From: Candidatus Collierbacteria bacterium
GTDB lineage: Bacteria; Patescibacteriota; Microgenomatia; UBA1400; JACPES01
Length of the DNA stretch: 49,112 nt
Assembly: GCA_016183365.1 (NCBI GenBank)
Contig: JACPES010000003.1
Span: 539,154 to 588,265, forward strand
Reading direction: 5' to 3'
Shown: piece by piece, positions 1,099 to 32,516 of the stretch
Layout of the letters: every line of letters begins with the position of its first letter
Position numbering within the stretch: position 1 is the stretch's first letter
Program-made: the position numbers and the translations under genes
Notes under the pieces: generated by a model
The model's input: only the letters and a program-made list of their open reading frames with translations
What the model was told of the DNA's origin: nothing
The model's database searches: none

Positions 1099-1122
1099 AT
1101 AAAATGTTATATAACATTTTAT
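1099..1122. repeat. P1a: 24-nt perfect palindrome ATAAAATGTTAT/ATAACATTTTAT
   Basis: Checked base by base. It lies 17 nt beyond the stop codon (1140-1142) of the minus-strand TrpR-like gene. Confidence 0.9.
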
Positions 1123-1139
1123 TATAACTGCATTATAAA

Positions 1140-1589
1140 TCAGAAGGGAACTTCGGTTTGCTTTACTTTTTCCCACTGCCTCCGACGCTGACTTTTCCAA
1201 TTTGTTGGTCCAAACCATAAAGGAGAACTTTCGGTTTCTTCCAGAGCTGATTGATGAGAGCGTTGTTTTGCAGCGTCTTCTTTTAATATCGTTTCGAGCA
1301 ACGTTCGATATCCGCTGCCTTTTACTTCTAACCAAGTTTTAACCCTGTAAATAGTTGGAAATGATACTTTTAATTTATCTGAAATTTCGCGGGCACCAAC
1401 GTGTTTTAAAAGCATTAAAGCAACACCGATTCGTTTTGAGATCATAATCTTTTCTGTATTAGTTAATAAATCATCAACAAAGTCAGCGGCTAAAGATGCT
1501 TGAGCGCACCTATTGATGCAGTCAACAAGAAGAGACTGTAATTTTTCTTTTACTTCAGGTTTAATATATTGAACAGAAACTTGAGCCAT
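1140..1589 (-). CDS. TrpR-related YerC/YecD-family HTH protein (paralog 1, 149 aa)
   Basis: The core LLTNTEKIMISKRIGVALMLLKHVGAREISDKLKVSFPTIYRVKTWL matches the Trp-repressor-like HTH pattern. It has the same length and architecture as ORF 25965..26414. Confidence 0.7.
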   Translation of the reverse strand: MAQVSVQYIKPEVKEKLQSLLVDCINRCAQASLAADFVDDLLTNTEKIMISKRIGVALMLLKHVGAREISDKLKVSFPTIYRVKTWLEVKGSGYRTLLETILKEDAAKQRSHQSALEETESSPLWFGPTNWKSQRRRQWEKVKQTEVPF

Positions 1590-1617
1590 ATATAAAATGT
1601 TGTACTACATTTTATAT
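1590..1617. repeat. P1b: 28-nt palindrome ATATAAAATGT-tGTACt-ACATTTTATAT with one central mismatch
   Basis: Checked base by base. It directly abuts the start codon (complement of 1587-1589) of the TrpR-like gene, and its arms match P1a. Confidence 0.9.
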
Positions 1618-1746: not shown

Positions 1747-2823
1747 ATGAGTTTAAGCATTTTAGATTCCCGAGAAGAAATTGCCAAAATTGATTTAGAA
1801 AACGTGTTGGGATCGGTGGAAGCTTTACCGCAACAGTGTTTGGATGCTTGGGAAAAAGCTCAAAATATTGTTGTTCCCGATTCTTATAAACAGATTGACA
1901 ATATCGTCATGTGCGGGATGGGAGGGTCAGGGTTGGGGACGCGAGTAATTGAGTCAGTTTACTTCAAAGATTTAAAAGTTCCTTTGGTCAGGGTTAACGG
2001 ATATGATCTGCCTGCTTTTGTGAATGAACGTAGTTTAATTTCTTGTTCCAGCTATTCGGGATCGACAGAAGAAACAGTTATGAATGCCCAACAGGCGATT
2101 GATAAAAATCTTAAATGGATGGCCATAGGCACCGGCGGAAAATTATTAGAATTAGCGGAACAACAAAAAGTTCCTTATTACAAAATTGTGCCTAAATATA
2201 ATCCTTCGAATCAGCCGAGGATGGCGATCGGTTATTCCGCAATCGGCCAGCTGGCCTTAGTTTCTCACGTCGGTTTAATTTCAATTTCAAGTAAAGAAAT
2301 AAGCGAAATCGTTAAAGTTATGAAAGCGGTTATAAATAAGAACAAAGTTGAAATTCCGGAAATAAACAATTCGGCAAAATTGTTGGCGAATAAGATGAAG
2401 GGTAAAGTCGTGGCACTTGTTGCCGGCGAACATTTGGTCGGACCGATGCACGTTGTCAATAACCAGCAAAACGAGAATGCCAAGAATATTTCTTTTGATT
2501 TTCAAATTCCGGAACTTAATCATCATTTACTGGAAGGTCTTAAACACCCTAAAACTAACTCTGGCAATATTTTGTTTGTTTTCGCGTCATCAAATCTATA
2601 TTCTGCCAGGATCCAAAAAAGATTTGGGTTGACCAAACAGGTGGTGGAAAAGAACGGGATTGAGACGGTTGCTCTGGAAATGATATCGGCCACTAAATTG
2701 TCTCAAGCGTTTGAACTAATCCAGCTTGGGGCTTACACCGATCTTTATTTATCCCTTCTGTACGGCCAAAATCCGGCCCCTATCCCTTGGGTTGATTGGT
2801 TTAAGGTCGAGATGGGGAAATAA
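1747..2823 (+). CDS. bifunctional phosphoglucose/phosphomannose isomerase-type SIS-domain protein
   Basis: 358 aa. It has the SIS nucleotide/sugar-phosphate fold signature (CGMGGSGLG ... SYSGSTEET) and the length typical of archaeal-type PGI/PMI. Confidence 0.7.
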   Translation: MSLSILDSREEIAKIDLENVLGSVEALPQQCLDAWEKAQNIVVPDSYKQIDNIVMCGMGGSGLGTRVIESVYFKDLKVPLVRVNGYDLPAFVNERSLISCSSYSGSTEETVMNAQQAIDKNLKWMAIGTGGKLLELAEQQKVPYYKIVPKYNPSNQPRMAIGYSAIGQLALVSHVGLISISSKEISEIVKVMKAVINKNKVEIPEINNSAKLLANKMKGKVVALVAGEHLVGPMHVVNNQQNENAKNISFDFQIPELNHHLLEGLKHPKTNSGNILFVFASSNLYSARIQKRFGLTKQVVEKNGIETVALEMISATKLSQAFELIQLGAYTDLYLSLLYGQNPAPIPWVDWFKVEMGK

Positions 2824-3826
2824 ATTTATTAAAGAATTTAAGATCGGTTTTAACCACTGAATTCCAACCGGGAGTTAAGTTGTGGTCGGCTCCGGGATAT
2901 TGATATAGAACCGCTTGTTTATTCAATGATTGCAAAGTTTTAATAAGATCCATAGACCATTCCCACGGTACCGCTTCATCGCCAGTGCCTTGGTGAACGA
3001 TCAACGGAGTTTCAATCCGATCCAGGTAATTGGTTACGGAAAATAGCTCCGGGTCGTAGACGGATTCAAATTCAGAAATAGATTTTCGCAAATACTTTCC
3101 ATGGTCGTCACTGTCGCCGGTATAGTACAGAATGGAATAAGGAAACGGTTTGGACACCGGAGCCCAAAACGAAGCCGCTTTAATTCTGTTGCTAACGGTT
3201 AAAACCGATAAGCCGATTTGGCCGCCATTGGAATGCCCCCACAAAAATATGTTTTCAGTATCAGCCATGGGTAGGTTAGAGATGGAAGCTAATAACTGCA
3301 AGACAGTAGCCGGTTTAATCAAACGGGACTCAATCTCGTTTTGAGGTTCGGGATCTGAACTGCCGAAGCCTAAAAAATCCGGAGCCAGGGTTAAAAATCC
3401 GTTATCGGCGAATACCTCTGCCGCTTTTTTAGTTCCGATACCCGGCATGTAAGCTTCCTTATCGACATATCCCCGCAACATTATTATTACCGGACATTTT
3501 GATTTAAAAGAAGACAAAGCGCAGCCAGCCGAAATATTGGCGGTTCCGCTTACTCGGCCTTCCCGGGTTTCAAAATCAAATAACCAACCGGAGTGTTTTT
3601 CTCCTGAATTGATTTCTTGCGACAGATCAATAGTTTTTGGCGTAAAATTAGACTGGTTTAGATTGTCAAACGAATATTTAAGCAAAGGTTTTGGAATCAC
3701 GGTTGGTTCCGGGGATAAAGGCGACAGCATCGCGGGAGATGATTTTAGCAACCAATATTGTTGGGTTATTCCACCGGTTAGCATGCCAACGATAAAAATT
3801 GCTGTTAATAAAATATAGAATTTCAT
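2801..3826 (-). CDS. membrane-anchored or secreted alpha/beta hydrolase (S9 / dienelactone-hydrolase-like)
   Basis: Nucleophile elbow GHSNGG, later HQGTGDEAVP and GADHNL (a Ser-Asp-His arrangement). The preferred start is Met44 (MKFYILLTAIFIVGML, hydrophobic N-terminus), because the first 43 codons of the listed ORF translate a hairpin repeat. Confidence 0.7.
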   Translation of the reverse strand: MKFYILLTAIFIVGMLTGGITQQYWLLKSSPAMLSPLSPEPTVIPKPLLKYSFDNLNQSNFTPKTIDLSQEINSGEKHSGWLFDFETREGRVSGTANISAGCALSSFKSKCPVIIMLRGYVDKEAYMPGIGTKKAAEVFADNGFLTLAPDFLGFGSSDPEPQNEIESRLIKPATVLQLLASISNLPMADTENIFLWGHSNGGQIGLSVLTVSNRIKAASFWAPVSKPFPYSILYYTGDSDDHGKYLRKSISEFESVYDPELFSVTNYLDRIETPLIVHQGTGDEAVPWEWSMDLIKTLQSLNKQAVLYQYPGADHNLTPGWNSVVKTDLKFFNKFISPSRP

Positions 3827-3880
3827 TTTGTCCTTCAAGAATCGAGTATACAGAGATTGATGAATAAGTAAACTTTTCTT

Positions 3881-3953
3881 TGTCATTCCTTTCGTAAGCA
3901 GGAATCTGTTCAAATAATTATTGGAATAGATTCCTGTTTTCACGGGAATGACC
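3881..3953. repeat. inverted pair of TGTCATTCC-N10-12-GGAATCT hairpin modules
   Basis: 3881-3907 is tgtcattcctttcgtaagcaggaatct. 3928-3952 is its inverted copy (reverse complement gtcattcccgtgaaaacaggaatct). An AT-rich spacer lies between them. Confidence 0.85.
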
Positions 3954-4012
3954 ATTGATTGCTAAAGTTTTGGCATTTGAACTTTGGACTTCAATAAGGT
4001 ATCCTAAATATA

Positions 4013-6328
4013 ATGCCTGATAAACTTCCGTTGGTTATTGATTTTAAGAAAGTAGATAAAGGCGATATTCTGTTGGTGGGAGGCAAGGGTTCCAATTTGG
4101 GAGAAATGACTAAAGCCGGATTTCCGGTCCCGCCCGGATTTGTGGTAACTTCAGAATCCTATTGGAAGTTTTTAGAGGAAAATCATTTAAGAAATAAAAT
4201 CTCCGATTTATTAAAGGGACTCGACGTTCACCGTTCCGACGAGCTGACCCGGATCAGCCACCAGATAAAAGATATGATCGTCCATGGTTCTATTCCAGAA
4301 GATATTTCTGAAAAAATAATTAAGTCTTATTTAGAATTGGGAAATAAAACTTTGGTGGCTGTCAGGTCTTCGGCGACGGCGGAAGATCTGCCTGACGCCA
4401 GTTTTGCCGGCCAACAGGACACTTTTTTAAACATAGTCGGCGAATCGAATGTCGTCGATTATGTCAGAAAAGCCTGGGCCAGTTTGTTTACTCCGCGAGC
4501 TATTTTTTATCGGGAGCAAAAGAAATTTGATCATTTTAAAGTCGGGATAGCGGTCCCGATTCAGAAAATGATCCAATCGGAAGTTTCCGGAGTTATGTTT
4601 ACCGTTAATCCGGTTAATCAGGATAAATCGGTAATTATAATCGAGGCCGTATTGGGATTAGGAGAAATGATTGTTCAGGGATCGGTAACACCTGATCATT
4701 ATGAAGTTTTAAAAAGAAATCTGGAAATTTCAAAAAAAACCATTAACCGTCAGACCAGGATAATGGTTAAAAATATCAAAGATCATCTGGCTGAAAATGA
4801 AGTCAGAATTTTGCCGATATGGAAGCAAAAATCTCAAAAGTTATCGGATAAATATGTAGTGGAGGCGGCTAAATTGGGAATGGCTTTGTATCAACACTAT
4901 TTTTTCCCCCAAGACGTGGAGTGGGCTTTGGAGAAAGGAAAAATTTATATCATCCAAACCAGGCCGATCACCACTCTAGAGAATAAAATTTATTCGGAAG
5001 AAAGCGGAAAAATAGTTACTAAAGGTTTGACCAAGATTTTAACTGGCCAACCGGCCAGCCCGGGGCTAGTTTCCGGTCCGGTCAGGCTGATTAAATCAGT
5101 CAAAGAAATTCATAATGTCAAACCCGGAGATATTTTAGTGATGGAAATGACCAGCCCGGATTTTGTCCCGGCCATGCGGAAAGCGGTGGCAGTAGTAACT
5201 GATCAGGGCGGGCAGACTTCGCATGCCGCAATTGTCAGCCGGGAATTAGGAGTGGTTTGCGTGGTTGGAACTCAAATTGCCACTAAAAAGCTTAAAAACG
5301 GTTCGATAGTAACCGTAAACGGAACTAACGGGGAAGTATTTGCGGGGGCGTTTCAGAAAACTCCGACAGCCGGATCGTCCGATAGTCAGATTGTCAGACA
5401 GTCAGAATCTCCGAGTGTTCAGAGTGTTCCGAATTTTTCTAATTTTAAAACCGCCACTAAGGTTTACGTTAACCTGGCCGAACCGGAACTGGCCGAGAAA
5501 ATCGCGGCCGAAAACGTGGACGGGATCGGATTATTAAGAGCGGAGTTTATGATTGCCCAGATAGGAATTCATCCTAAAAAATTTATTCAGGACAAAAAAA
5601 CCGCTGAATTCGTTGATGCTTTGAAAACGGGCTTAACCAAATTCGCGCAGGCTTTTTATCCCCGGCCGGTGGTGTATCGGGCCACGGATTTCAGGACGAA
5701 TGAGTACCGGAATTTAAAAGGCGGGGACCGGTTTGAGCCGGTGGAGCCAAATCCGATGTTGGGTTTCAGGGGTGCGTCAAGATATATCGTCGATTCTGAA
5801 GTTTTTGAATTGGAGTTAAAGGCAATCCGCGAAGTCCGGGAAAAATTTAATAATCTTCATTTGATGATTCCGTTTGTCAGAAGTGTAAATGAACTGAAAG
5901 AAGTTAAAAAAATAGTTTACGGAATGAGTTTAAGGAGAAGTCAAAACTTTCAATTTTGGATGATGACAGAATTACCGGTTAATGTAATTTCAATTGACGA
6001 TTTTCTGGACGTCGGCATAGACGGTATTTCTATAGGAACCAATGATTTGACCATGCTGACATTGGGAACCGATCGGGATAACGAAAATGTGGCCAAGGAT
6101 TATGACGAGATGAATTCGGCGGTACTCTGGAGTTTAAAACGTTTGATTACCTCGGCCGCTAAAAGAGGCGTCACCAGTTCTATTTGCGGCCAGGCCCCAA
6201 GTATTTATCCGGAACTGGTAGAAGAATTGGTAAAATGGGGAATCACCAGTGTGTCAATTTCGCCCGATAGGATTAATACGACCAGAAAATTAATTTATGA
6301 AGCGGAGAGGAAAAATCTATGTCATTAA
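4013..6328 (+). CDS. ppsA: phosphoenolpyruvate synthase (pyruvate, water dikinase)
   Basis: 771 aa. N-terminal ATP-grasp region, phosphohistidine swivel motif GGQTSHAAIVSRELG, and a C-terminal PEP-utilising barrel with ICGQAPS. Confidence 0.85.
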   Translation: MPDKLPLVIDFKKVDKGDILLVGGKGSNLGEMTKAGFPVPPGFVVTSESYWKFLEENHLRNKISDLLKGLDVHRSDELTRISHQIKDMIVHGSIPEDISEKIIKSYLELGNKTLVAVRSSATAEDLPDASFAGQQDTFLNIVGESNVVDYVRKAWASLFTPRAIFYREQKKFDHFKVGIAVPIQKMIQSEVSGVMFTVNPVNQDKSVIIIEAVLGLGEMIVQGSVTPDHYEVLKRNLEISKKTINRQTRIMVKNIKDHLAENEVRILPIWKQKSQKLSDKYVVEAAKLGMALYQHYFFPQDVEWALEKGKIYIIQTRPITTLENKIYSEESGKIVTKGLTKILTGQPASPGLVSGPVRLIKSVKEIHNVKPGDILVMEMTSPDFVPAMRKAVAVVTDQGGQTSHAAIVSRELGVVCVVGTQIATKKLKNGSIVTVNGTNGEVFAGAFQKTPTAGSSDSQIVRQSESPSVQSVPNFSNFKTATKVYVNLAEPELAEKIAAENVDGIGLLRAEFMIAQIGIHPKKFIQDKKTAEFVDALKTGLTKFAQAFYPRPVVYRATDFRTNEYRNLKGGDRFEPVEPNPMLGFRGASRYIVDSEVFELELKAIREVREKFNNLHLMIPFVRSVNELKEVKKIVYGMSLRRSQNFQFWMMTELPVNVISIDDFLDVGIDGISIGTNDLTMLTLGTDRDNENVAKDYDEMNSAVLWSLKRLITSAAKRGVTSSICGQAPSIYPELVEELVKWGITSVSISPDRINTTRKLIYEAERKNLCH
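5350..5450 (+). repeat. in-frame low-complexity tract built from TCAGA/TCCGA 7-mer words inside ppsA
   Basis: The words ttcagaa ctccgac gtccgat gtcagat gtcagac gtcagaa ctccgag ttcagag ttccgaa encode the linker SSDSQIVRQSESPSVQSVPNFS. Confidence 0.7.
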
Positions 6329-9506: not shown

Positions 9507-11222
9507 ATGAAAACATCAATACCAAAAATCACCGTCAAGGACAAGCAGCTTAAATTTAAGCCCAATATATCCAATTATGAGGCGGCTTATCGTGATTACA
9601 ATCTCAATAAACTGATTAAAGATAACATTTCTCTATTTCCTGAAAATAAAATCAACGCCGCTTATAATGCCGTCGACCGTCAAGTTTTAGGCCCGCGGAA
9701 AAATAAAATCGCGATTTATCATCTGGACCAGGATTTAAACGAAATCAAGTTAACCTTTTTTGAGCTTTACCAATTGTCCAACAGATTCGGGAATTTATTA
9801 AAATCATTGGGAGTCGGTCGCGGCGATAGGGTATTTTTCTTCCTGCCCAGAATTCCGGAACTTTTCTATGGATTTTTGGGAACGTTGAAAATCGGGGCTG
9901 TAGCCGGAACTATGTTTTCGGCTTTCGGAGTCCAAGCCTTAATCGATAGATTAGCGGATAGTGCCGCTAAAGTCGTTATAACCAATAAGGAATTATTGCC
10001 TCGGATAAAAGACGCCAAAATACATTTGCCTGATTTGGAAAAGATTTCAGTGGTAGAGGATTTTGCGCCGGAATTATCAAAATTTTCTGATGAACTCCAT
10101 GTGTCCCAAATGGATATGGATGATCCGGCTTTTATGTTGTATACCTCCGGTACTACAGGTAAGCCCAAAGGAGTAGTTCATACCCACCGGGCCATTATCC
10201 AAGAACATTTAACTTCCAACTGGGTTTTGGATTTAAAAGAAGACGATACCTATTGGTGCACGGCCGATCCAGGCTGGGTAACCGGAATTGCCTATGAAAT
10301 TTTAGGGTCGTTAAGCAACGGGGCTTCGACTGTAGTTTATTCCGGCCGGTTCGACCCAACCATCTGGTATAAAATCGTCGAAAAATATCAGGTTTCAGTT
10401 TGGTATACGGCCCCGACGGCCATCCGCATGCTTCAGGCGGCCGGCAAGCAGGCTATCGGCAAAACAGATTTATCCTCATTAAGACATATTTTAAGCGTTG
10501 GCGAACCATTGAATCCAGAACCTCTACTGTGGGCTAAAAAAACTTATGGGTTGGTTTTTCATGACACTTGGTGGCAGACGGAAACAGGCAGTATTATGAT
10601 TGCCAATTTTCCTTGTTTACCCATCAAGCCCGGTTCGATGGGCTATCCGGTGCCGGGAGTGACCGCGGCGATAGTTGACGATAACGGCAAACCGGTAAAA
10701 CCGATGATGGAGGGCAATTTGGCGATTAAGAAAGGCTGGCCATCGATGATGAAGACAATTTGGCGCCGGCCCAAAAAATACGAGTCGTATTTCATTGACG
10801 ATTGGTATATATCCGGCGACCGGGCCTATATGGATTACGACAGCTATTTTTGGTTTGTGGGCCGGGCGGACGATGTCATCAAAACCGCCGGCGAAAGGGT
10901 AGGACCTTTTGAGGTGGAATCGGCCCTGGTGGCCTATCCCGGCGTGACCGAAGCCGGAGTCATTGGCAAACCGGATCCAATTCGAGGTCAAATTATTAAA
11001 GCTTTTGTAACTTTAAATCCGGAAATTAAACCATCTAAAGCCTTGGTGGTAAAACTCCAGGAATTTGTTAAAAAATATCTGGCCGGCCATGCCTATCCCA
11101 AAGAAATTGAATTCGTGAAATCCCTGCCTAAAACCCGTTCCGGTAAAATCATGCGCCGAATGTTGCGGGCCAAAGAACTTGGCTTGCCGATCGGTGATAC
11201 GTCGACACTTGAAGAGTATTAA
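9507..11222 (+). CDS. acs: AMP-forming acetyl-CoA synthetase-type acyl-CoA ligase
   Basis: AMP-binding motif YTSGTTGKPKG, the Acs-type DTWWQTETG, and C-terminal PKTRSGKIMRR. Confidence 0.75.
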   Translation: MKTSIPKITVKDKQLKFKPNISNYEAAYRDYNLNKLIKDNISLFPENKINAAYNAVDRQVLGPRKNKIAIYHLDQDLNEIKLTFFELYQLSNRFGNLLKSLGVGRGDRVFFFLPRIPELFYGFLGTLKIGAVAGTMFSAFGVQALIDRLADSAAKVVITNKELLPRIKDAKIHLPDLEKISVVEDFAPELSKFSDELHVSQMDMDDPAFMLYTSGTTGKPKGVVHTHRAIIQEHLTSNWVLDLKEDDTYWCTADPGWVTGIAYEILGSLSNGASTVVYSGRFDPTIWYKIVEKYQVSVWYTAPTAIRMLQAAGKQAIGKTDLSSLRHILSVGEPLNPEPLLWAKKTYGLVFHDTWWQTETGSIMIANFPCLPIKPGSMGYPVPGVTAAIVDDNGKPVKPMMEGNLAIKKGWPSMMKTIWRRPKKYESYFIDDWYISGDRAYMDYDSYFWFVGRADDVIKTAGERVGPFEVESALVAYPGVTEAGVIGKPDPIRGQIIKAFVTLNPEIKPSKALVVKLQEFVKKYLAGHAYPKEIEFVKSLPKTRSGKIMRRMLRAKELGLPIGDTSTLEEY

Positions 11223-17991: not shown

Positions 17992-18008
17992 CGCTTTTAT
18001 TATAATAA

Positions 18009-18034
18009 TGTAAAATGATTTAAATCATTTTACA
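18009..18034. repeat. P3: 26-nt perfect palindrome TGTAAAATGATTT/AAATCATTTTACA
   Basis: Checked base by base. It starts 18 nt after the uvrB stop. It shares TAAAATG arms with P1 and the ATTTAAAT centre with P2. Confidence 0.9.
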
Positions 18035-18232
18035 CTTCTCCTGACACATCTTTTTATATCTTCTGCTACGGGCTGGGAATAGTTGAAGATGGTTATAAAC
18101 ACAACGGAACTGTACTGGAGTTAAATTATCAGCTCGTAAATACGAATGTCGATTGATGGCAAAATTATGATTCCGAATTTTTACATCCTGTAAGTAATAT
18201 CGGGTTGAACTCCAGATAAAAAACGGATAAAA

Positions 18233-18609
18233 CTAGGCTTTCAGTTTGGTTAAGAGAAATTTGAATAAAGGTAAAAAGTTTGGAAGTTGAGAATAAATTT
18301 TATCTGCTAAATCCTGATTGTAGGTATGAACGGTTTGATTTCGCAAATCAACCATTGTTAACCAATTGTCTTCATATTCGATAATTCCCTGACGATATGC
18401 TTCGCGGAAAGCCTCCTTTGGAGAATTGACTAAAATCCCTTTTTTCTCTTCAAGATATGCTTTTAGGGTTATCCAAGCCAAATCAAGACTAAATTCAAAC
18501 CTTTGGATCGCCGAATCTTTTACCACATCAGACGGGATTAGCTTGAGAACTTCTTCCAATCGAATAATGGCTTGGGTTAATTGACGGTAATAGCTTCAAA
18601 TTTGCTCAT
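18233..18609 (-). pseudogene. HEPN-domain nucleotidyltransferase substrate-binding protein (HI0074-like), frameshifted near the 5' end
   Basis: ATG at 18609 gives MSKFE. The rest (YYRQLTQAIIRLEEVLKLIPSD...RNQTVHTY) is in another frame. The span is 377 nt (3n+2). Confidence 0.7.
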
Positions 18610-18912
18610 ATATACTCTTTATTATTATTTACCACTTGAATAAACTCTTTTGGAATTTGAGAAAAATCCACGATATCTATTTTATAGAGTATGGGAAGAT
18701 TTTCAACCTCGACTTTTATTTTTTCTAAAACCGAAAGTTGAATTGGTTCGGAACCCTCTAGTCCGACGTCAATATCTGAAGTCGGCCGGTAAGTGCCGGT
18801 AACCCTGGAGCCGAAAAAAGAAAGCCCGATAGACAGACATGTCTAAATGTTTTTCGAAAATACCAAGCAGGAGTGTTTTTAGAGTTTCCACGGGAAAATT
18901 TTCCAAAACCAT
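18606..18912 (-). pseudogene. minimal nucleotidyltransferase (MNT, HI0073-like), frameshifted in an A6/T6 run
   Basis: MVLENFPVETLKTLLLGIFEKHLDMSVYRAFFF, then a shift at 18814-18819 into GSRVTGTYRPTSDIDVGLEG...KIDIVDF (GS..DxD motif). The span is 307 nt (3n+1). Its TGA overlaps the HEPN ATG (ATGA). Confidence 0.7.
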
Positions 18913-19001
18913 ATTTTGATTGTACAACTTTCTAGGCAATCAATTTGAACCCTGACTGAATTAAAGCTATAATTTAAGGTTGCGAAATATTTTCATAAGT
19001 T

Positions 19002-19124
19002 ATGGATAAAGAAAAATTTATTGAAGTCATTGGGGCTCGACAACACCCCAAAGTACACTTTTTTCACCCCGGAGGCTTCCAGTCTAGCGCTCGCGAAGGG
19101 CGTAACTTCGGGGCAAGCAAATAA
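19002..19124 (+). pseudogene. orphan uvrA 5' fragment (MDKEKFIEVIGARQH) running into unrelated GC-rich sequence and a stop
   Basis: The first 15 codons match the canonical UvrA N-terminus (compare E. coli MDKIEVRGARTHNLKNI). The frame then reads PKVHFFHPGGFQSSAREGRNFGASK-stop. Confidence 0.5.
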
Positions 19125-25081: not shown

Positions 25082-25105
25082 TGTATAATTCCCCGCTTAG
25101 TCCTT

Positions 25106-25831
25106 TTGGAGTCGCCGCCGCCGTACCGGCAAAGCCTGGAGATAGATATAGGGTCGCTAACCGGTCTTCTCGGCGTGGCCGGAGCCAAAGAAGACCAATT
25201 AAAACTTAGTTTCGAACGCCAGCAAAATGTTGTCCGCGCCGCACCGACTCACGCAGGACGACTGGCGACCACAACTAAAGAAACGCAGTTTATTGTATTC
25301 GATCCCCACCGACAAGAATTGAAGCTGACTATGTCTTATCCGGACAATGAGGTAAAAACACCAACGGCAACGGCGAAAAATCTATCACGGCGGCTAACCA
25401 GGACATTATCAATGGATCCGGCAACGCGAAGTACTTCACTAATTTACTAGAAGATATAGATGGTAAATCTGCGTCTGGCCGAGCAGTAGAATTAGCGCTT
25501 CATACTGTTCGAATGGTCGAAACCGCTCTGTGCACTCCTATCGTCTATGGAACTATTTCAAGTAGGAACAAATGCTCCGCGTCCTTGGGAAACGCTAGGA
25601 ATTATTGCCACAATGAATCTTTTAGACGTAACCTTTGATTTGCAACATGCTATATGGTTAATGCGTGGTGAGCTAACAGACGAAAAGAAAATTCCACTCG
25701 CGATAACTATCGCCGAGAAACCGTTAAGAGCTCTTTATCCTGTTTCTCTCGTCCACGAATGTCTGCTTCCGACAGCACGGATATTAACACATAATACTTT
25801 TACCTTAGCACAACTCCTCAAGGCAAACTAA
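25106..25831 (+). pseudogene. GC-rich block with three protein-like frame fragments (possible degraded foreign gene)
   Basis: ORFs 25106..25450 and 25547..25831, plus an unlisted frame (TNGNGEKSITAANQDIINGSGNAKYFTNLLEDIDGKSASGRAVELALHTVRMVETAL), follow each other in different frames. No family was recognised. Confidence 0.3.
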
Positions 25832-25935
25832 AAATGACTGTCAATACTTTTAAGCTATAGCGATGAAGTATAGACATTCGTTAATAAGTTAACATTAATG
25901 CCACTTGACTCTAGCATTAAAAGATTTCTATAATT

Positions 25936-25961
25936 ACTTCAATTATTTAAATAATTGAAGT
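25936..25961. repeat. P2a: 26-nt perfect palindrome ACTTCAATTATTT/AAATAATTGAAGT
   Basis: Checked base by base. It ends 3 nt before the ATG (25965) of TrpR-like paralog 2. Confidence 0.9.
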
Positions 25962-25964
25962 CTT

Positions 25965-26414
25965 ATGCCCCAGATTTCTAAAAGATTCGTTAAGCCAGCG
26001 GTAAAAGAAAAGATTGATAATCTGTTTATTGAGTGTATTGCCGAGTGTAGAAATCAAAATGAAGCGGCTAATTTCATTAATGTTCTACTTACAAAAACTG
26101 AAAAAACAGTTATTGCCAAAAGAGTTGCCATTGCCCTAATGTTGACTAAAGGCTATACCGCTACAGATATTGATGAAAAGTTAAAAGTTTCTCTAGCTAC
26201 TGTTTATACTGTTAAATATTGGCTGGAAGAAAAAGGCAGCGAGATTAACGCGATTCTAACCAAAATTGCCAAGCGCGACCAGCGGCAGGAGTTAGATAAT
26301 CAGGAATTCCAAAGAGAAGCCGATAGTCTATTTCCACCGCCTCCCGGCACAAATTGGAGAAACTACCGCCGTTTCCAGAACGAAAAAATCCTTAAAACCT
26401 CTGCCCCATTCTAG
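25965..26414 (+). CDS. TrpR-related YerC/YecD-family HTH protein (paralog 2, 149 aa)
   Basis: LLTKTEKTVIAKRVAIALMLTKGYTATDIDEKLKVSLATVYTVKYWL. It is collinear with ORF 1140..1589 over its whole length, including the C-terminal TNW..RR....K......PF tail. Confidence 0.7.
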   Translation: MPQISKRFVKPAVKEKIDNLFIECIAECRNQNEAANFINVLLTKTEKTVIAKRVAIALMLTKGYTATDIDEKLKVSLATVYTVKYWLEEKGSEINAILTKIAKRDQRQELDNQEFQREADSLFPPPPGTNWRNYRRFQNEKILKTSAPF

Positions 26415-26437
26415 ATGAAAGAAACGTTTTTACTTTG

Positions 26438-26471
26438 AAATACTTCAATTATTTAAATAATTGAAGTATTT
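26438..26471. repeat. P2b: 34-nt perfect palindrome AAATACTTCAATTATTT/AAATAATTGAAGTATTT
   Basis: Checked base by base. It starts 23 nt after the stop codon of paralog 2. Confidence 0.9.
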
Positions 26472-30439: not shown

Positions 30440-30538
30440 ACTTCCTGCTTTTAAAAAAACAACCCCGCCCAAGCGGGGTTCGATACCTGTATTTTAGCCG
30501 ATTTGGAACCAAATAGCCAATCTACTCAATGCTTTCAT

Positions 30539-30565
30539 TGTCATTCCGGGCTTGAACCGGAATCT
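30539..30565 (+). repeat. single TGTCATTCC-N-GGAATCT hairpin module (intergenic)
   Basis: tgtcattccgggcttgaaccggaatct, with the 7-bp stem attccgg/ccggaat. Confidence 0.85.
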
Positions 30566-30845
30566 ATATAGATTACTCCTTCAACCATCCCACCGACCAG
30601 ACTGCAACCAAAATTTTGGCTGGCCTTGATCGTTTGATAAAGACCCAATCAGCAATTTAGTTGTTGGCATATTCAAACCTATTCATGCCAACGACGCAAA
30701 TTTTCCGGTCAATATCAATCAAAGTTTTAATATAAACCTCAAAAAGTTTTTTGAGTTGTTCAATTTCTGCGGGTGAATATGGTTTAGAAGTCAAAATAGC
30801 CACGAAAGAATGATAGCAGACATCACTGTTCTGATCTCTAAACCA

Positions 30846-30880
30846 TAAGGAGGTAAAATTAAATGATTCAAATCATTTAA
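30846..30880 (+). promoter_or_regulatory. perfect Shine-Dalgarno (TAAGGAGGT) followed by a 5-codon mini-ORF (MIQII-stop)
   Basis: SD at 30846-30854, ATG at 30863, TAA at 30878-30880. No long ORF follows on this strand. Confidence 0.35.
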
Positions 30881-31007
30881 CCTTTTTATGATTCATAGTT
30901 GATTGTTGTGCAGTTTATCCTGTAAAGCAGGATCCTGCTCTGCAGGACGAAACTTCACCATAATCTTCATTCTACGATGCCGATCGGCACTCTGGAATGA
31001 AAATCTA

Positions 31008-31030
31008 AAATACTTCAATTATTTAAATAA
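31008..31030. repeat. P2c: truncated copy of palindrome P2 (left arm + centre only)
   Basis: aaatacttcaattatttaaataa, then a break into GC-rich sequence (cactgagccc...). Confidence 0.85.
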
Positions 31031-31073
31031 CACTGAGCCCACCGAATGTGCCCACCCGCCGCGCCGGAGTTTA

Positions 31074-31119
31074 CCCCGAACCGTCCCGCTAAGCGGGACT
31101 GGTTCTGGGGCTATTTTTT
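31074..31119 (+). terminator. strong intrinsic terminator (nested hairpin + T-run)
   Basis: ccccgaacc-gtcccgc-taa-gcgggac-tggttctgggg followed by ctatttttt. Confidence 0.7.
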
Positions 31120-31192
31120 GCGCGCGCGATTTTTTTCTTGCTTCGCAAGTAAATACTACTTGAATTTTCTCAAATATGTTATACTAAATCAA

Positions 31193-31438
31193 ATGGAGCA
31201 ACAGTTTAAGGTTAAACTAAATACAGATCCTATCCAAACAACAAAATCCTTTATTGCTAGTATGAATAAAAGCGATTGGATTTTTCTGTTTTCATACGTG
31301 ATTATTTTGATGGTTGTTGCTATGGTTATTGATTTCGGTCTTCACTTGATTGATGGAAAATACATCTTTCTTCCTGGAATATTTTTAGGTGGTCCCTTAC
31401 TTCGGAATAGAATAATGGCGAGAGAAAATAAAAAGTAA
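31193..31438 (+). CDS. hypothetical small membrane protein (81 aa)
   Basis: The start is set at MEQQFKV. The upstream part of the listed ORF covers the terminator. One or two hydrophobic segments. Confidence 0.45.
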   Translation: MEQQFKVKLNTDPIQTTKSFIASMNKSDWIFLFSYVIILMVVAMVIDFGLHLIDGKYIFLPGIFLGGPLLRNRIMARENKK

Positions 31439-31446
31439 ATTTTTCC

Positions 31447-31677
31447 TTAGCCTCTCTTCAGCTTTTTATACAATTCGTAAAATATACCAACGGCTCCCGG
31501 AAATACGAGAATACTTACAACCACAACAGCCATAGGACTTATATTTCCCTGCCCCTCAGCCTCGGACATATAACCAACCATTAATCCAAATATGACCATG
31601 ATAAAATAAAGTGCAAGTTTGGGATTTTCAGAAACTATTTTCTCTATACTTTTTTGCTTGTTTAACATATATTTCAC
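31447..31677 (-). CDS. hypothetical small two-TM membrane protein (76 aa)
   Basis: Two clear hydrophobic spans (LALYFIMVIFGLMVGY and MAVVVVSILVFPGAVGIF). No family was recognised. Confidence 0.5.
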   Translation of the reverse strand: MKYMLNKQKSIEKIVSENPKLALYFIMVIFGLMVGYMSEAEGQGNISPMAVVVVSILVFPGAVGIFYELYKKLKRG

Positions 31678-31727
31678 CTCCTATCTGCGAATTATTACCC
31701 TTACACTGTTTAGTGTACAAAATCAAC

Positions 31728-31757
31728 TTGCTTTTAACAATCTAGTTTTGCTATATT
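31728..31757 (+). promoter_or_regulatory. sigma70-like promoter candidate (-35 TTGCTT, 18-nt spacer, -10 TATATT)
   Basis: Hexamers at 31728-31733 and 31752-31757. The predicted start near G31764 coincides with the first base of the long helix. Confidence 0.35.
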
Positions 31758-31763
31758 AACTAT

Positions 31764-31927
31764 GGACTCAGCAAAAACGAATTGCGTTTTTTAATGGCGC
31801 AATCGGACAGTAAGACGCAATTCTTGCTGAGTCCACCGGTTGCGCCATTTAAATTGTATAAAAGTTCTTTGAAAATTTTTGCGTCACGCTGAGCGTGACA
31901 GTTGCCCCGCTAAGCGGGGCGTTTTTT
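31764..31927 (+). ncRNA. candidate ~165-nt structured sRNA (unassigned family)
   Basis: An 11-bp helix (31764-31774 with 31824-31834) and an 8-bp helix (31779-31786 with 31816-31823). A 10-nt loop segment aatggcgcaa (31793-31802) is complementary to ttgcgccatt (31840-31849). Two hairpins follow, the second a terminator. No ORF is present. Confidence 0.4.
31904..31927 (+). terminator. intrinsic terminator gccccgc-taa-gcggggc + T6
   Basis: A perfect 7-bp GC-rich stem followed by gtttttt. Confidence 0.75.
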
Positions 31928-31963
31928 CTTCGAGCCGACAAATCATCGACAGTAAAAATTGTT

Positions 31964-32233
31964 TTATTTTTTCCAAGTTTTTTTCCTAAAATATTCTCTC
32001 AATTTAACTTCAAGTTCTTTCTTCCCATTTCCTCCTTTGAGATAAATTTCTCTATTTCTGGCATCTTTTTCTTCGACAAAAGCTTCATAATGAATTAATT
32101 GTAAGGGTCTCCTATCTTTTGTCGCTCTGACAAATCCATTTTCATGAGCTTTAATTCGAGAACGCAGATCTGGAGTAAATCCCGTGTAAAGTTTTCCATC
32201 CTTCAAGCTGTGGAGAATGTAGGTGTAAAACAT
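31964..32233 (-). CDS. small GIY-YIG nuclease-family protein (UPF0213/YhbQ-like)
   Basis: YTYILHSLKDGKLYTGFTPDLRSRIKAHENG ... EIYLKG in an 89-aa protein. Confidence 0.8.
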   Translation of the reverse strand: MFYTYILHSLKDGKLYTGFTPDLRSRIKAHENGFVRATKDRRPLQLIHYEAFVEEKDARNREIYLKGGNGKKELEVKLREYFRKKTWKK

Positions 32234-32379: not shown

Positions 32380-32441
32380 ATTGAGCATATTTTACCTCAA
32401 ATCTTTAAATTGGAACATGGTTACGCTTATCTGATATTAAA

Positions 32442-32469
32442 TACTTCAATTATTTAAATAATTGAAGTA
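32442..32469. repeat. P2d: 28-nt perfect palindrome TACTTCAATTATTT/AAATAATTGAAGTA
   Basis: Checked base by base. It lies upstream of the minus-strand tRNA-Gln / GIY-YIG unit. Confidence 0.9.
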
Positions 32470-32516
32470 ATTAAGCTGTCGGCATTATTATTATAGATGA
32501 AAATTGATCCGATCTT

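What the first reader, a model, noticed from the sequence alone, without database searches (positions are those of the whole stretch)
25936..26471. TrpR/YerC-like gene bracketed by two copies of a private perfect palindrome (start-codon-proximal and stop-codon-proximal)
The 149-aa HTH gene is preceded by a 26-nt perfect palindrome (ACTTCAATTATTTAAATAATTGAAGT) that ends 3 nt before its ATG. No room is left for a normal Shine-Dalgarno sequence. The gene is followed, 23 nt after its stop, by a 34-nt perfect palindrome with the same core.

The paralog at 1140..1589 has exactly the same layout but a different palindrome. TrpR-family proteins bind palindromic operators as dimers.

The simplest reading is a pair of co-diverged repressor/operator sets with autoregulation. 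The gene-between-two-identical-palindromes geometry also fits a small mobile or recombining cassette, or hairpin insulators. I do not know of a described system with this layout.
Basis: partly seen in the sequence, partly recalled or inferred. Interest (0 to 1): 0.75.

Follow-up and report, generated by a model that had tools for sequence, protein, structure and literature searches.

The report
Repressor gene bracketed by its operators
A small Trp-repressor-like regulator gene of an ultra-small (Patescibacteria/CPR) bacterium has the same private palindrome on its promoter and just past its stop codon, and this two-site bracket recurs with clade-specific sequences across the protein family, which points to a self-regulating repressor with an unusual second operator at the gene's 3' end.

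Summary
Gene A (25965..26414, +, 149 aa, Pfam Trp_repressor) is flanked by ACTTCAATTATTTAAATAATTGAAGT at 25936-25961 and 26442-26467. Paralog B (1140..1589, -) has the same layout with TAAAATG-N8-CATTTTA.

The palindromes are not strictly private. A has a third full copy (32443-32468) and a truncated one (31006-31030). B has a third site (18011-32).

The bracket recurs in about 17 distinct related loci, counting near-identical contigs once. Each protein clade has its own palindrome, the same one at both ends, standing out as fully conserved in poorly conserved DNA. Predicted promoters always overlap the upstream copy. In 12-20 kb around the Woesebacteria-type genes only the two flanking copies occur, so this is not a REP-like repeat.

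Best reading: these are cognate operators of a Patescibacteria-specific TrpR-like subfamily with a 45-aa C-terminal extension. The upstream site autorepresses by promoter occlusion. The stop-proximal site is a second operator, either a roadblock/insulator or a loop anchor; its role is inferred, not shown.

The missing Shine-Dalgarno sequence is genome-wide and not special to this gene. A mobile-cassette reading is poorly supported. I rate this a new variant of a known kind, of moderate to high interest.

The parts
25905..25934 (+). Predicted sigma-70 promoter of gene A: TTGACT, 18 nt, TATAAT
   Evidence: It is the best promoter-like site in 8 kb, matching 11 of 12 positions. The -35 box and the 18-nt spacing are conserved in orthologous loci L004 and L017, and the -10 box is conserved or near-conserved (TATAAT in L004, TATACT in L017).
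25936..25961 (.). Upstream operator of gene A: a 26-nt perfect palindrome that starts 2 nt after the -10 box, covers the predicted transcription start (about 25941) and ends 3 nt before the ATG
   Evidence: It is 26/26 identical in L003, L004, L017 and L018, while the genes themselves are about 72-85% identical.
25965..26414 (+). Gene A: 149-aa TrpR-like helix-turn-helix protein with a 45-aa C-terminal extension
   Evidence: Pfam PF01371 at 48.2 bits. AF2 model with pLDDT 89.5, and a TrpR fold with TM about 0.78 to 6fal/1tro. The hhalign comparison with E. coli TrpR gives 95% probability.
26438..26471 (.). Stop-proximal operator of gene A: a 34-nt perfect palindrome (core 26442-26467) starting 23 nt after the stop
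   Evidence: The same core lies 34-37 nt after the stop in L004, L009 and L017.
32443..32468 (.). Third full copy of the A palindrome (near-palindromic over 32437-32474), 48 nt after the UPF0182 stop and 63 nt before tRNA-Gln
31006..31030 (+). Truncated A copy (left arm plus centre) in a decayed intergenic region
1590..1617 (-). Upstream operator of paralog B (ATATAAAATGTAGTACAACATTTTATAT on the gene strand). It abuts the ATG and overlaps the predicted -35/-10 spacer and -10 box
   Evidence: It is near-identical (0-1 mismatch in 28 nt) in L001, L011 and L015.
1140..1589 (-). Paralog B: 149-aa TrpR-like protein, 44% identical to A
1099..1122 (.). Stop-proximal operator of paralog B: a 24-nt perfect palindrome 17 nt after the B stop and 27 nt after the stop of the convergent phosphoglucomutase gene
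18009..18034 (.). Third B-type site (TAAAATG-N8-CATTTTA inside a 26-nt perfect palindrome), 17 nt after the uvrB stop

Best explanation
Each palindrome is the cognate DNA operator of the TrpR-like dimer encoded between the two copies.

The upstream copy sits on the core promoter and transcription start of the gene. The bound protein would block RNA polymerase there, which is classical negative autoregulation as at E. coli trpR.

The second copy lies from 2 nt of overlap with the stop codon to 38 nt after it. It is a separately maintained operator for the same protein. Its most likely role is a protein roadblock or insulator at the 3' end of the gene. It would stop the gene's own transcription from running into the neighbour. 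It would also stop transcription of the usually convergent neighbour from running antisense into the regulator gene. It may additionally anchor a roughly 0.5-kb repression loop.

A few further sites of the same kind lie just after other genes: uvrB and UPF0182 in the window, and uvrC in relatives.

What is shown: the sequence architecture, its conservation, the co-variation, and the fold.

What is inferred: binding, repression, and above all the function of the downstream site.
For: 1. The protein is a TrpR-fold helix-turn-helix protein.

2. The bracket recurs in about 17 distinct related loci, counting near-identical contigs of the same strain once, and in at least 7 palindrome classes. In each locus the same palindrome lies upstream and downstream:
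- Clade A: ACTTCAATTATTTAAATAATTGAAGT.
- Clade B: TAAAATG-N8-CATTTTA.
- Clade C: ATTTCAATTAATTGATTAATTGAAAT, with an 8-nt-longer variant in L005 that is changed at both ends.
- L013: TTATATCGATATTTTAAAATATCGATATAA.
- Woesebacteria type: CCATGATTCGAATCATGG upstream and CTATGATTCGAATCATAG downstream.
- L022 and L023: core changes are mirrored at both ends.
- L019b: TGTACTAGTACA.

3. The palindromes are 100% conserved blocks in roughly 60-80% identical DNA.

4. The recognition helix tracks the operator class. L019b has SIATVTKVS, close to E. coli TrpR GIATITRGS, and an E. coli-like GTACTAGTAC operator core.

5. In every clade the best predicted promoter overlaps or abuts the upstream palindrome.

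6. Upstream and downstream variants differ systematically in the Woesebacteria type (CC versus CT). This argues for selection on each site rather than copying between them.

7. Copy number is low. There are only the two flanking copies in 12-20 kb around six Woesebacteria-type genes, and none beyond the flanks in about 17 kb around B.

8. Evidence for a role at the 3' end of genes:
- The downstream copy is always tied to the regulator's stop codon (from 2 nt of overlap to 38 nt after it), not to the neighbour.
- The neighbour is convergent in most loci.
- The extra sites also lie 1-49 nt after stop codons and 63-1000 nt before the next gene.
- No canonical terminator follows the gene where the palindrome is intact. 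The one clear terminator is in L002, whose downstream copy is degenerate.
Against: - No binding or expression data exist. Everything rests on sequence comparison and consensus promoter matches.
- Perfect palindromes are also RNA hairpins. The A downstream copy folds at -14.4 kcal/mol.
- All 26 positions are conserved, which is more than a single TrpR dimer usually contacts.
- L020 and L022 have near-identical recognition helices but operator cores that differ by a dinucleotide swap.
- The spacing between the two sites (478-518 bp) shows no helical phasing, which gives no support to looping.
- The stop-to-site distance varies from 2 nt of overlap to 38 nt, so no single roadblock geometry is implied.
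- L003 and L014 lack the downstream copy, so it is dispensable in some lineages.
Confidence: 0.72

Rival explanations
1. The palindromes act as RNA hairpins, independently of the protein. The one after the stop codon would be an AT-rich terminator or 3'-end stabiliser. The one before the start codon would be a 5' stabiliser or translation-control hairpin.
For: - The A downstream copy folds at -14.4 kcal/mol (z = -6.9). That is as stable as a canonical terminator stem in the same window, at -14.9.
- Canonical terminators are no commoner than chance in 8 kb of the window. They are absent after the regulator gene wherever the palindrome is intact.
- The extra copies lie just after stop codons.
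Against: - No U-run follows any copy.
- The B downstream hairpin is weak, at -6.6 kcal/mol and z = -1.7.
- In clades B, L013, L019b and the Woesebacteria type, the predicted -35 and -10 boxes flank or lie inside the upstream palindrome. It would therefore not be transcribed as a whole.
- An RNA hairpin needs only complementarity. Here the exact sequence, loop included, is conserved, it is clade-specific, and it is shared by the two ends.
- One of the downstream-copy mismatches checked (L020) is an A-C pair and not a wobble pair (direct reading of the sequences).
Confidence: 0.12
2. The unit palindrome-gene-palindrome is a mobile or recombining cassette, analogous to REP/RAYT units, Xer (pdif) modules or integron cassettes. 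The palindromes would be recombination sites.
For: - Blocks of homology between relatives end at palindrome ends.
- In clade A the arrays are: window UvrC-X-P-A-P-holin; L017 UvrC-P-AKR-P-A-P-X-holin; L004 UvrC-P-membrane protein-P-A-P-other-holin. Here P is the palindrome, A is gene A, AKR is an aldo-keto reductase gene, and X is a 741-bp segment that sits on opposite sides of A in the window and in L017.
- In clade B one flank changes beyond the palindrome in L001, L011 and L015.
- The B palindrome has an 11-6-11 architecture like a dif site.
- In clades B and C the asymmetric centres have the same orientation at both ends.
Against: - The genes keep their place across deep divergence. Six genomes have the gene between rpsG and fusA. 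A stays after uvrC. B stays beside PGI or PGM.
- Flanks change one side at a time, not both together.
- Unrelated ORFan insertions also fill other intergenic slots of the same operons that carry no palindrome, so variable neighbours are not specific to the palindromes.
- Homology would end at the last conserved element anyway.
- The protein has no catalytic domain.
- Centre length varies (0, 2, 4 or 6 nt) and most sites are perfectly symmetric, which is unlike tyrosine-recombinase core sites.
- Copy number is very low.
- Viral contigs hold no A-palindrome match. The two matches to the Woesebacteria-type core have no TrpR-like gene nearby.
Confidence: 0.06
3. The palindromes are a generic dispersed repeat (REP-like) that happens to flank these genes.
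For: - A few copies occur away from the regulator genes (32443, 31006, 18009; L004 1886; L017 5127).
- Other short dispersed repeats do exist in these genomes.
Against: - Only 3.5 A copies and 3 B copies occur in 49 kb, and there are no extra copies in six 12-20 kb loci.
- Each class co-occurs with its own protein clade in unrelated metagenomes.
- All five perfect palindromes of 24 nt or more among the 25 longest inverted repeats listed for the window (59 pairs found) belong to these two classes.
Confidence: 0.03

Closest known systems
E. coli TrpR and its autoregulated trpR operator
   Same: - Same fold (TM about 0.78).
- Dimeric helix-turn-helix protein that reads a palindrome overlapping its own promoter.
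- Arg54 and Thr44 of the corepressor pocket have conserved equivalents, Arg53 (invariant) and Thr43 (Thr or Ser).
- One family member, L019b, even has a GTACTAGTAC operator core and an E. coli-like recognition helix.
   Different: - The score is far below the TrpR equivalog cutoff (25.8 against 67.25 bits).
- The protein is 149 aa with an extra long helix (residues 92-120) and a terminal helix (131-145).
- Most operators are unrelated in sequence and 22-34 nt long.
- A second operator lies just after the stop codon. To my knowledge that is not a feature of trpR.
- No tryptophan genes are nearby.
HisR (B. subtilis YerC) / YerC-YecD family
   Same: It is the closest sequence family by NCBIfam and by PDB matches (3g1c, 3frw, 3kor). 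HisR also uses lineage-specific 20-bp palindromes and has sites upstream of hisR itself (PMC9413887).
   Different: - The score is below the TIGR02531 cutoff (33.6 and 28.2 against 42.2 bits).
- The C-terminal extension is present here.
- The operators do not fit cacTTTA-N6-TAAAgtg.
- No histidine genes are in the neighbourhood.
- No stop-proximal site is described for HisR.
Lambda CI with OR and OL flanking the cI-rex operon; LacI with O3 at the 3' end of lacI (recalled from my own knowledge, not checked here)
   Same: A repressor gene lies between two sets of its own operators. In lambda this allows looping and tighter autoregulation. In lac, the operator at the 3' end of lacI acts as a roadblock on lacI transcription.
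   Different: - The protein families are unrelated.
- In those systems the distal operator primarily controls another promoter (pL, lacZYA).
- Here the distal site usually lies between convergent genes with no promoter to control.
- The arrangement here is conserved family-wide.
REP/RAYT units (REP-associated tyrosine transposase genes flanked by their cognate REP palindromes)
   Same: A small gene is bracketed by clade-specific palindromes, with extra copies in intergenic 3' regions.
   Different: - The protein here is a TrpR-fold DNA binder and not an HUH/Y1 transposase.
- Copy number is 2-4 in the sequence available, not tens to hundreds.
- The upstream copy coincides with the gene's promoter.

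Membership tests
Trp repressor superfamily (Pfam PF01371) | Sequence match above the curated cutoff | tested here: met
   A scores 48.2 bits and B 43.0 bits against a cutoff of 27.
Trp repressor superfamily (Pfam PF01371) | TrpR fold: six-helix protomer with the D-E helix-turn-helix | tested here: met
   The AF2 model has pLDDT 89.5. Foldseek top hits are all TrpR or TrpR-like, with target-normalised TM 0.74-0.80. The intertwined dimer was not modelled.
Trp repressor superfamily (Pfam PF01371) | Palindromic operator overlapping the regulated promoter | tested here: met
   This holds by sequence prediction only: the palindrome abuts or lies within the best -35/-10 pair in 19 of 20 loci examined. 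Binding was not tested.
TrpR proper (NCBIfam TIGR01321 equivalog) | Score above the equivalog cutoff; regulation of trp or aro genes; L-tryptophan as corepressor | tested here: not met
   The scores are 25.8 and 21.4 bits against a cutoff of 67.25. No trp genes are in the window. The equivalents of pocket residues Arg54 and Thr44 are conserved, but the Arg84 equivalent is Thr in A. The ligand is not testable with these tools.
YerC/YecD = HisR (NCBIfam TIGR02531) | Score above the cutoff; operator cacTTTA-N6-TAAAgtg; control of histidine genes | tested here: not met
   The scores are 33.6 and 28.2 bits against a cutoff of 42.2. The operators differ from the HisR consensus (PMC9413887). No his genes are nearby.
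REP/RAYT-type or other mobile palindrome-flanked cassette | A transposase or recombinase is encoded between the palindromes | tested here: not met
   Only the TrpR fold plus helices is present. The only transposase match is a weak hit to the IS630 N-terminal helix-turn-helix region (20 bits against a cutoff of 100).
REP/RAYT-type or other mobile palindrome-flanked cassette | Many dispersed copies, or the unit found at different genomic sites in relatives | tested here: not met
   There are 2-4 copies per 12-49 kb. The gene's position is conserved across relatives: rpsG|fusA in six genomes, after uvrC for A, beside PGI or PGM for B. A whole-genome count was not possible.
Intrinsic terminator | G+C-rich stem followed by a U-run | tested here: not met
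   The stems are AT-rich and no T-run follows them. The consensus terminator scan does not call them.

The most novel reading that the evidence does not exclude
The bracket is a self-encoded, protein-dependent transcription insulator. The regulator gene typically sits as an antisense island inside a run of co-directional genes, most strikingly between rpsG and fusA of the str operon.

Its product, bound at both ends of its own gene, would block polymerases arriving from either side. The same sites placed just after other genes (uvrB, uvrC, UPF0182) would act as ligand-controlled roadblock terminators.

This would matter in genomes with few canonical terminators. It would make this TrpR-like family a regulator of read-through, including read-through between ribosomal-protein and elongation-factor genes, rather than a classical promoter repressor only.
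Probability: 0.2. Interest if true: 0.8.

Novelty: new variant of a known kind. Interest (0 to 1): 0.58.

Why it matters
Patescibacteria (CPR) have tiny genomes, and, to my knowledge, few regulators and almost no experimentally characterised transcription factors.

This analysis gives the following:
- A family of at least about 150 clusters at 50% identity, with paralogs in one genome.
- Precise, clade-specific predicted operators for that family.
- A conserved and unusual two-site architecture: one site on the promoter and one just past the stop codon.
- A striking conserved location for many members, antisense between rpsG and fusA.

All of this is directly testable with purified protein and synthetic DNA, and needs no cultivation. 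If the stop-proximal site proves to be a protein roadblock, it would be a family-wide example of regulated, factor-dependent termination or insulation in bacteria with few intrinsic terminators. If it proves to be only an auxiliary operator, the finding is still a useful regulon anchor for CPR genomes.

Tried and rejected
- Helical phasing of the two sites. The centre-to-centre distances are 478-518 bp, with fractional turns scattered between 0.0 and 0.95, so this is uninformative.
- A third paralog or pseudogene in the window that could explain the site at 18009 and the palindrome at 30859-30880. A tblastn search with 121 family proteins found only noise. The site at 18009 then turned out to fit the B-type pattern exactly.
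- The third paralog elsewhere in the same genome. No hit from the 588-kb contig appears among the top 120 of 707 hits.
- Rfam. It finds only tRNAs at gathering score, and only chance-level matches in 30470-32000.
- Viral contigs. There is no A palindrome. The two hits to the Woesebacteria-type core are at about chance level by a rough estimate of my own and have no TrpR-like gene nearby.
- Cargo genes next to the palindromes. They have no homology with each other. The same kind of ORFan insertion occurs in slots without palindromes, so I dropped this as evidence for recombination at the palindromes.
- Extending the window. The far-end gene was not on record. The near end gave about 6 kb more sequence with no further copies.
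- Literature searches for CPR TrpR-like regulators. [quoted passage not shown]
Full report
**1. The observation**

Reading the window confirms the ORF 25965..26414 (+, 149 aa). The 26-nt perfect palindrome ACTTCAATTATTTAAATAATTGAAGT lies at 25936-25961 and ends 3 nt before the ATG. A 34-nt perfect palindrome with the same core lies at 26438-26471, 23 nt after the TAG.

The protein matches Pfam Trp_repressor (48.2 bits, cutoff 27). The paralog 1140..1589 (-) is 44% identical. It has ATATAAAATGT-AGTACA-ACATTTTATAT abutting its ATG (1590-1617), and ATAAAATGTTATATAACATTTTAT 17 nt after its stop (1099-1122).

A search for the A palindrome allowing 3 mismatches finds three exact copies against 0.00 expected. 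The third is at 32443-32468, between the stop of a UPF0182 gene and tRNA-Gln. A truncated copy lies at 31006-31030 in decayed DNA.

The B half-site pattern TAAAATG-N8-CATTTTA occurs three times against 0.08 expected. The third is at 18011-18032, 19 nt after the uvrB stop; the full palindrome, 18009-18034, starts 17 nt after it. Among the 25 longest inverted repeats listed for the window (59 pairs found), all five perfect palindromes of 24 nt or more belong to these two classes.

**2. The organism and the protein family**

The window comes from a 588-kb contig, and the closest loci retrieved from named genomes are Candidatus Collierbacteria and Paceibacterota. The genes are housekeeping: glycolysis, uvrABC, BipA and tRNAs.

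The protein belongs to a Patescibacteria family of about 147-150 aa:
- A word-indexed profile search gave 198 proteins at E <= 1e-5.
- A profile of the Woesebacteria-type members gave 707 at E <= 1e-8.
- An exhaustive profile search gave 157 clusters at 50% identity at E <= 1e-30.

It scores below the curated cutoffs of both YerC/YecD (33.6 against 42.2 bits) and TrpR proper (25.8 against 67.25). The AF2 model is confident (pLDDT 89.5). Its first roughly 100 residues superpose on E. coli TrpR and TrpR-like structures (TM about 0.75-0.80). They are followed by a long helix (92-120), a Pro-rich linker and a terminal helix (131-145) with no counterpart in solved structures.

A profile alignment to E. 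coli TrpR puts invariant Arg53 at TrpR Arg54 and Thr43 at Thr44; both are corepressor-pocket residues by my knowledge of the TrpR structures. The Arg84 equivalent is Thr in A and Arg or Lys in other clades.

**3. The bracket is a property of the whole family**

I retrieved 30 related loci and looked for palindromes around each gene.

Classes found at both ends of the gene:

| Clade / loci | Upstream palindrome | Downstream palindrome |
|---|---|---|
| A orthologs (79-88% identity; L004, L009, L017, L018) | A palindrome, 3 nt before the ATG (gene start not held in L009) | Same, 34-37 nt after the stop |
| About 52% identity clade (L005-L010) | ATTTCAATTAATTGATTAATTGAAAT | Same (contigs L008 and L010 end before the downstream region) |
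| L005 | A variant of the above, 8 nt longer | Same variant, changed at both ends |
| B orthologs (L001, L011/12, L015, L028-30) | B palindrome | B palindrome |
| L013 | TTATATCGATATTTTAAAATATCGATATAA | Same |
| Woesebacteria type (L019-L022, L024, L025) | (TA)CCATGATTCGAATCATGG(TA) | CTATGATTCGAATC... 2-22 nt after the stop |
| L022 | Core AGTTCGAACT | Same core |
| L023 | Core GATTTAAATC | Same core |
| L019b, a second paralog in L019 | TGTACTAGTACA core | Same core |

Exceptions: L003 and L014 lack the downstream copy, and in L002 it is degenerate (20 of 30 positions by direct comparison of the two sequences).

In multiple alignments the palindromes are fully conserved blocks in DNA that is otherwise 60-80% identical. 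In the Woesebacteria type the upstream and downstream versions differ consistently (CC against CT at the same position). This argues that each site is kept by selection rather than by copying from the other.

**4. Are they a repeat family?**

No. Scans of the 12-20 kb loci find only the two flanking copies around each Woesebacteria-type gene. No extra B copy lies in the roughly 17 kb around B held in L028-L030. A-type loci have one extra copy each (L004 1886-1911; L017 5127-5152), right after the uvrC stop.

**5. Position relative to promoters**

The best sigma-70-like site in 8 kb is TTGACT-18-TATAAT at 25905-25934, and the palindrome starts 2 nt after it. My scan of all loci gives two layouts:
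- In clades A and C and in L002, a strong TTGAC(N) -35 box and a -10 box lie immediately upstream of the palindrome, so the start site falls in its left arm. In L014 a comparable promoter lies about 15 nt upstream of the shorter palindrome.
- In clade B, L013, L019b and the Woesebacteria type, the palindrome fills the spacer and the -10 box (for example TTGTTA-18-TAACAT with an extended-10 TG). The start site falls 0-11 nt before the ATG.

Either way a bound dimer would occlude RNA polymerase, which is classical autorepression. In the second layout the upstream copy would not be transcribed as a hairpin, which weakens the RNA reading. These are consensus matches, not mapped starts.

**6. The Shine-Dalgarno point**

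Depending on how strict a motif is required, about 2-7 of 28 genes checked in the window have any SD-like motif. Many have a -10 box 8-15 nt before the ATG. Short or absent leaders are the rule in this genome, so this part of the finding is ordinary.

**7. Recognition code**

The recognition helix varies with operator class:
- SLATVYTVKYW in A.
- SFPTIYRVKTW in B.
- S-x-G-T-I-A-R/K-V/I-H in the Woesebacteria type.
- SIATVTKVS in L019b, which resembles E. coli GIATITRGS and goes with an E. coli-like GTACTAGTAC core.

One discordance: L020 and L022 share the helix but differ by a dinucleotide swap in the core.

**8. What the stop-proximal copy might do**

- It is tied to the regulator's own stop codon (from 2 nt of overlap to 38 nt after it), not to the neighbour, which lies 81-168 nt away in the Woesebacteria-type loci.
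- The downstream neighbour is convergent in most loci: PGM for B, rpsG or a small ORF for the Woesebacteria type. There is therefore usually no promoter for it to control.
- The extra sites in the window and in relatives also lie 1-49 nt after stop codons (uvrB, uvrC, UPF0182) and 63-1000 nt before the next gene. That is unlike the promoter-type copies, which lie 0-18 nt from the ATG.
- No canonical terminator follows the regulator gene where the palindrome is intact. The one clear terminator is in L002, where the downstream copy has decayed.
- Canonical terminators are no commoner than chance in 8 kb of the window.
- As RNA, the A copy would be a stable hairpin (-14.4 kcal/mol) and the B copy a weak one (-6.6). 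None has a U-run.

I therefore favour a protein roadblock or insulator at the 3' end, possibly also a loop anchor. The spacing gives no phasing signal, and this step is inference.

**9. The cassette idea**

Homology blocks between relatives end at palindrome ends, and the neighbours vary. In the arrays below, P is the palindrome, A is gene A, AKR is an aldo-keto reductase gene, and X is a 741-bp segment found on opposite sides of A in the window and in L017:
- Window: UvrC-X-P-A-P-holin.
- L017: UvrC-P-AKR-P-A-P-X-holin.
- L004: UvrC-P-membrane protein-P-A-P-other-holin.

B keeps PGI but loses PGM in L001 and L011, and the reverse in L015.

Against this, the genes stay in place over deep divergence, and flanks change one side at a time. 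The variable genes are unrelated ORFans. The same ORFan turnover fills palindrome-free slots of the same operons, such as tuf|fusA and rpsJ|rplC. Alignments would also end at the last conserved element in any case. The protein has no catalytic domain. I rate this reading as unlikely.

**10. A notable context**

In six genomes (L019-L022, L024, L025) the gene lies antisense between rpsG and fusA, splitting the near-universal str operon. L019 has a second paralog, on the opposite strand to its neighbours, between rpsJ and the ORF that precedes rplC.

In L019 a terminator-like hairpin and an extended-10 promoter precede fusA (my reading of the sequence), so the operon is genuinely split there.

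Clade C genes lie near tRNA-Trp. [quoted passage not shown] A link to translation genes is a lead, not a result.

**11. Comparison with known systems and verdict**

Functionally this works like an autoregulated TrpR/HisR-type repressor (HisR: PMC9413887). It is a member of the Trp_repressor superfamily but not of TrpR proper or YerC/HisR by the curated thresholds.

The conserved second operator just past the stop codon, the C-terminal extension and the antisense position in the str operon are not described in anything I could find. By layout, the nearest analogues are lambda CI between OR and OL, and lacI with O3 at its 3' end. These come from my own knowledge and were not checked here.

It is a new variant of a known kind. 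Interest is 0.58.

Noticed in passing
L019 10001-10459, L020, L021, L022, L024, L025 (gene at 10001 or 6001 in each): In six divergent Patescibacteria genomes the TrpR-like gene sits antisense between rpsG (S7) and fusA (EF-G), splitting the near-universal str operon. Lineage-specific ORFans lie beside it.
   Followed up: partly
window 17992-19020: A 1-kb stretch between uvrB and uvrA has no long ORF. It starts with TATAAT (18001-18006) followed by the B-type palindrome at 18009-18034. No Rfam family reaches its gathering score there in the whole-window scan, and there is no homology to the fetched loci.
   Followed up: partly
window 30473-31050: A decayed region lies after the BipA gene. It holds a remnant of a DUF5674 gene (30628-30766, homologous to L017), a palindrome TTAAATGATT-CA-AATCATTTAA (30859-30880) that resembles the Woesebacteria-type operator core, and the truncated A copy.
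   Followed up: partly
window 30538-30581 and 30910-30953: Two short G+C-richer segments match several unrelated CPR loci at 83-87% identity (L001 twice, L011, L014; L006 and L007). They are possibly small dispersed repeats or MITE-like elements.
   Followed up: no
window 31030-31150: A G+C-rich, hairpin-rich stretch lies right after a TAAAAT box and the truncated A copy. It ends in T-runs and could be a small RNA. No Rfam match was found.
   Followed up: partly
window 31755-31843: A long, nearly perfect hairpin of about 85 nt picks up chance-level microRNA-precursor matches in Rfam on both strands.
   Followed up: no
window 3896-3939: A 44-nt imperfect palindrome (88% complementary) lies near the start of the long ORF for an alpha/beta-hydrolase (2801..3955, -), upstream of the divergently transcribed pyruvate phosphate dikinase gene. 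It is possibly the operator of another regulator.
   Followed up: no
L001 5154-5156: The Collierbacteria ortholog of paralog B has an in-frame TGA at the codon of the family-invariant Arg53, yet keeps both palindromes. It could be a pseudogene, a sequencing error or recoding.
   Followed up: no
L024 5854-6000: A G+C-rich repeat-like insertion of about 135 nt separates the upstream operator (5831-5848) from the ATG. In this locus only, the operator therefore sits 152 nt upstream of the ATG.
   Followed up: no
L006 3603-3790: TATAAT is followed by a half-site of the clade C palindrome (ATTTCAATT). After it comes a sequence resembling the 5' part of the adjacent tRNA-Trp, interrupted by a 40-nt hairpin insertion. 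The real tRNA-Trp follows at 3793-3866.
   Followed up: no
window, 28 gene starts: Shine-Dalgarno motifs are nearly absent. Many genes have a -10-like box 8-15 nt before the start codon, which suggests that leaderless or very short-leader mRNAs are the norm in this genome.
   Followed up: partly
window 25101-25841 versus L017 6977-7748: A 741-bp segment with two ORFs that have no Pfam match (114 and 94 aa) lies upstream of gene A in the window, but downstream of it in the relative L017.
   Followed up: partly
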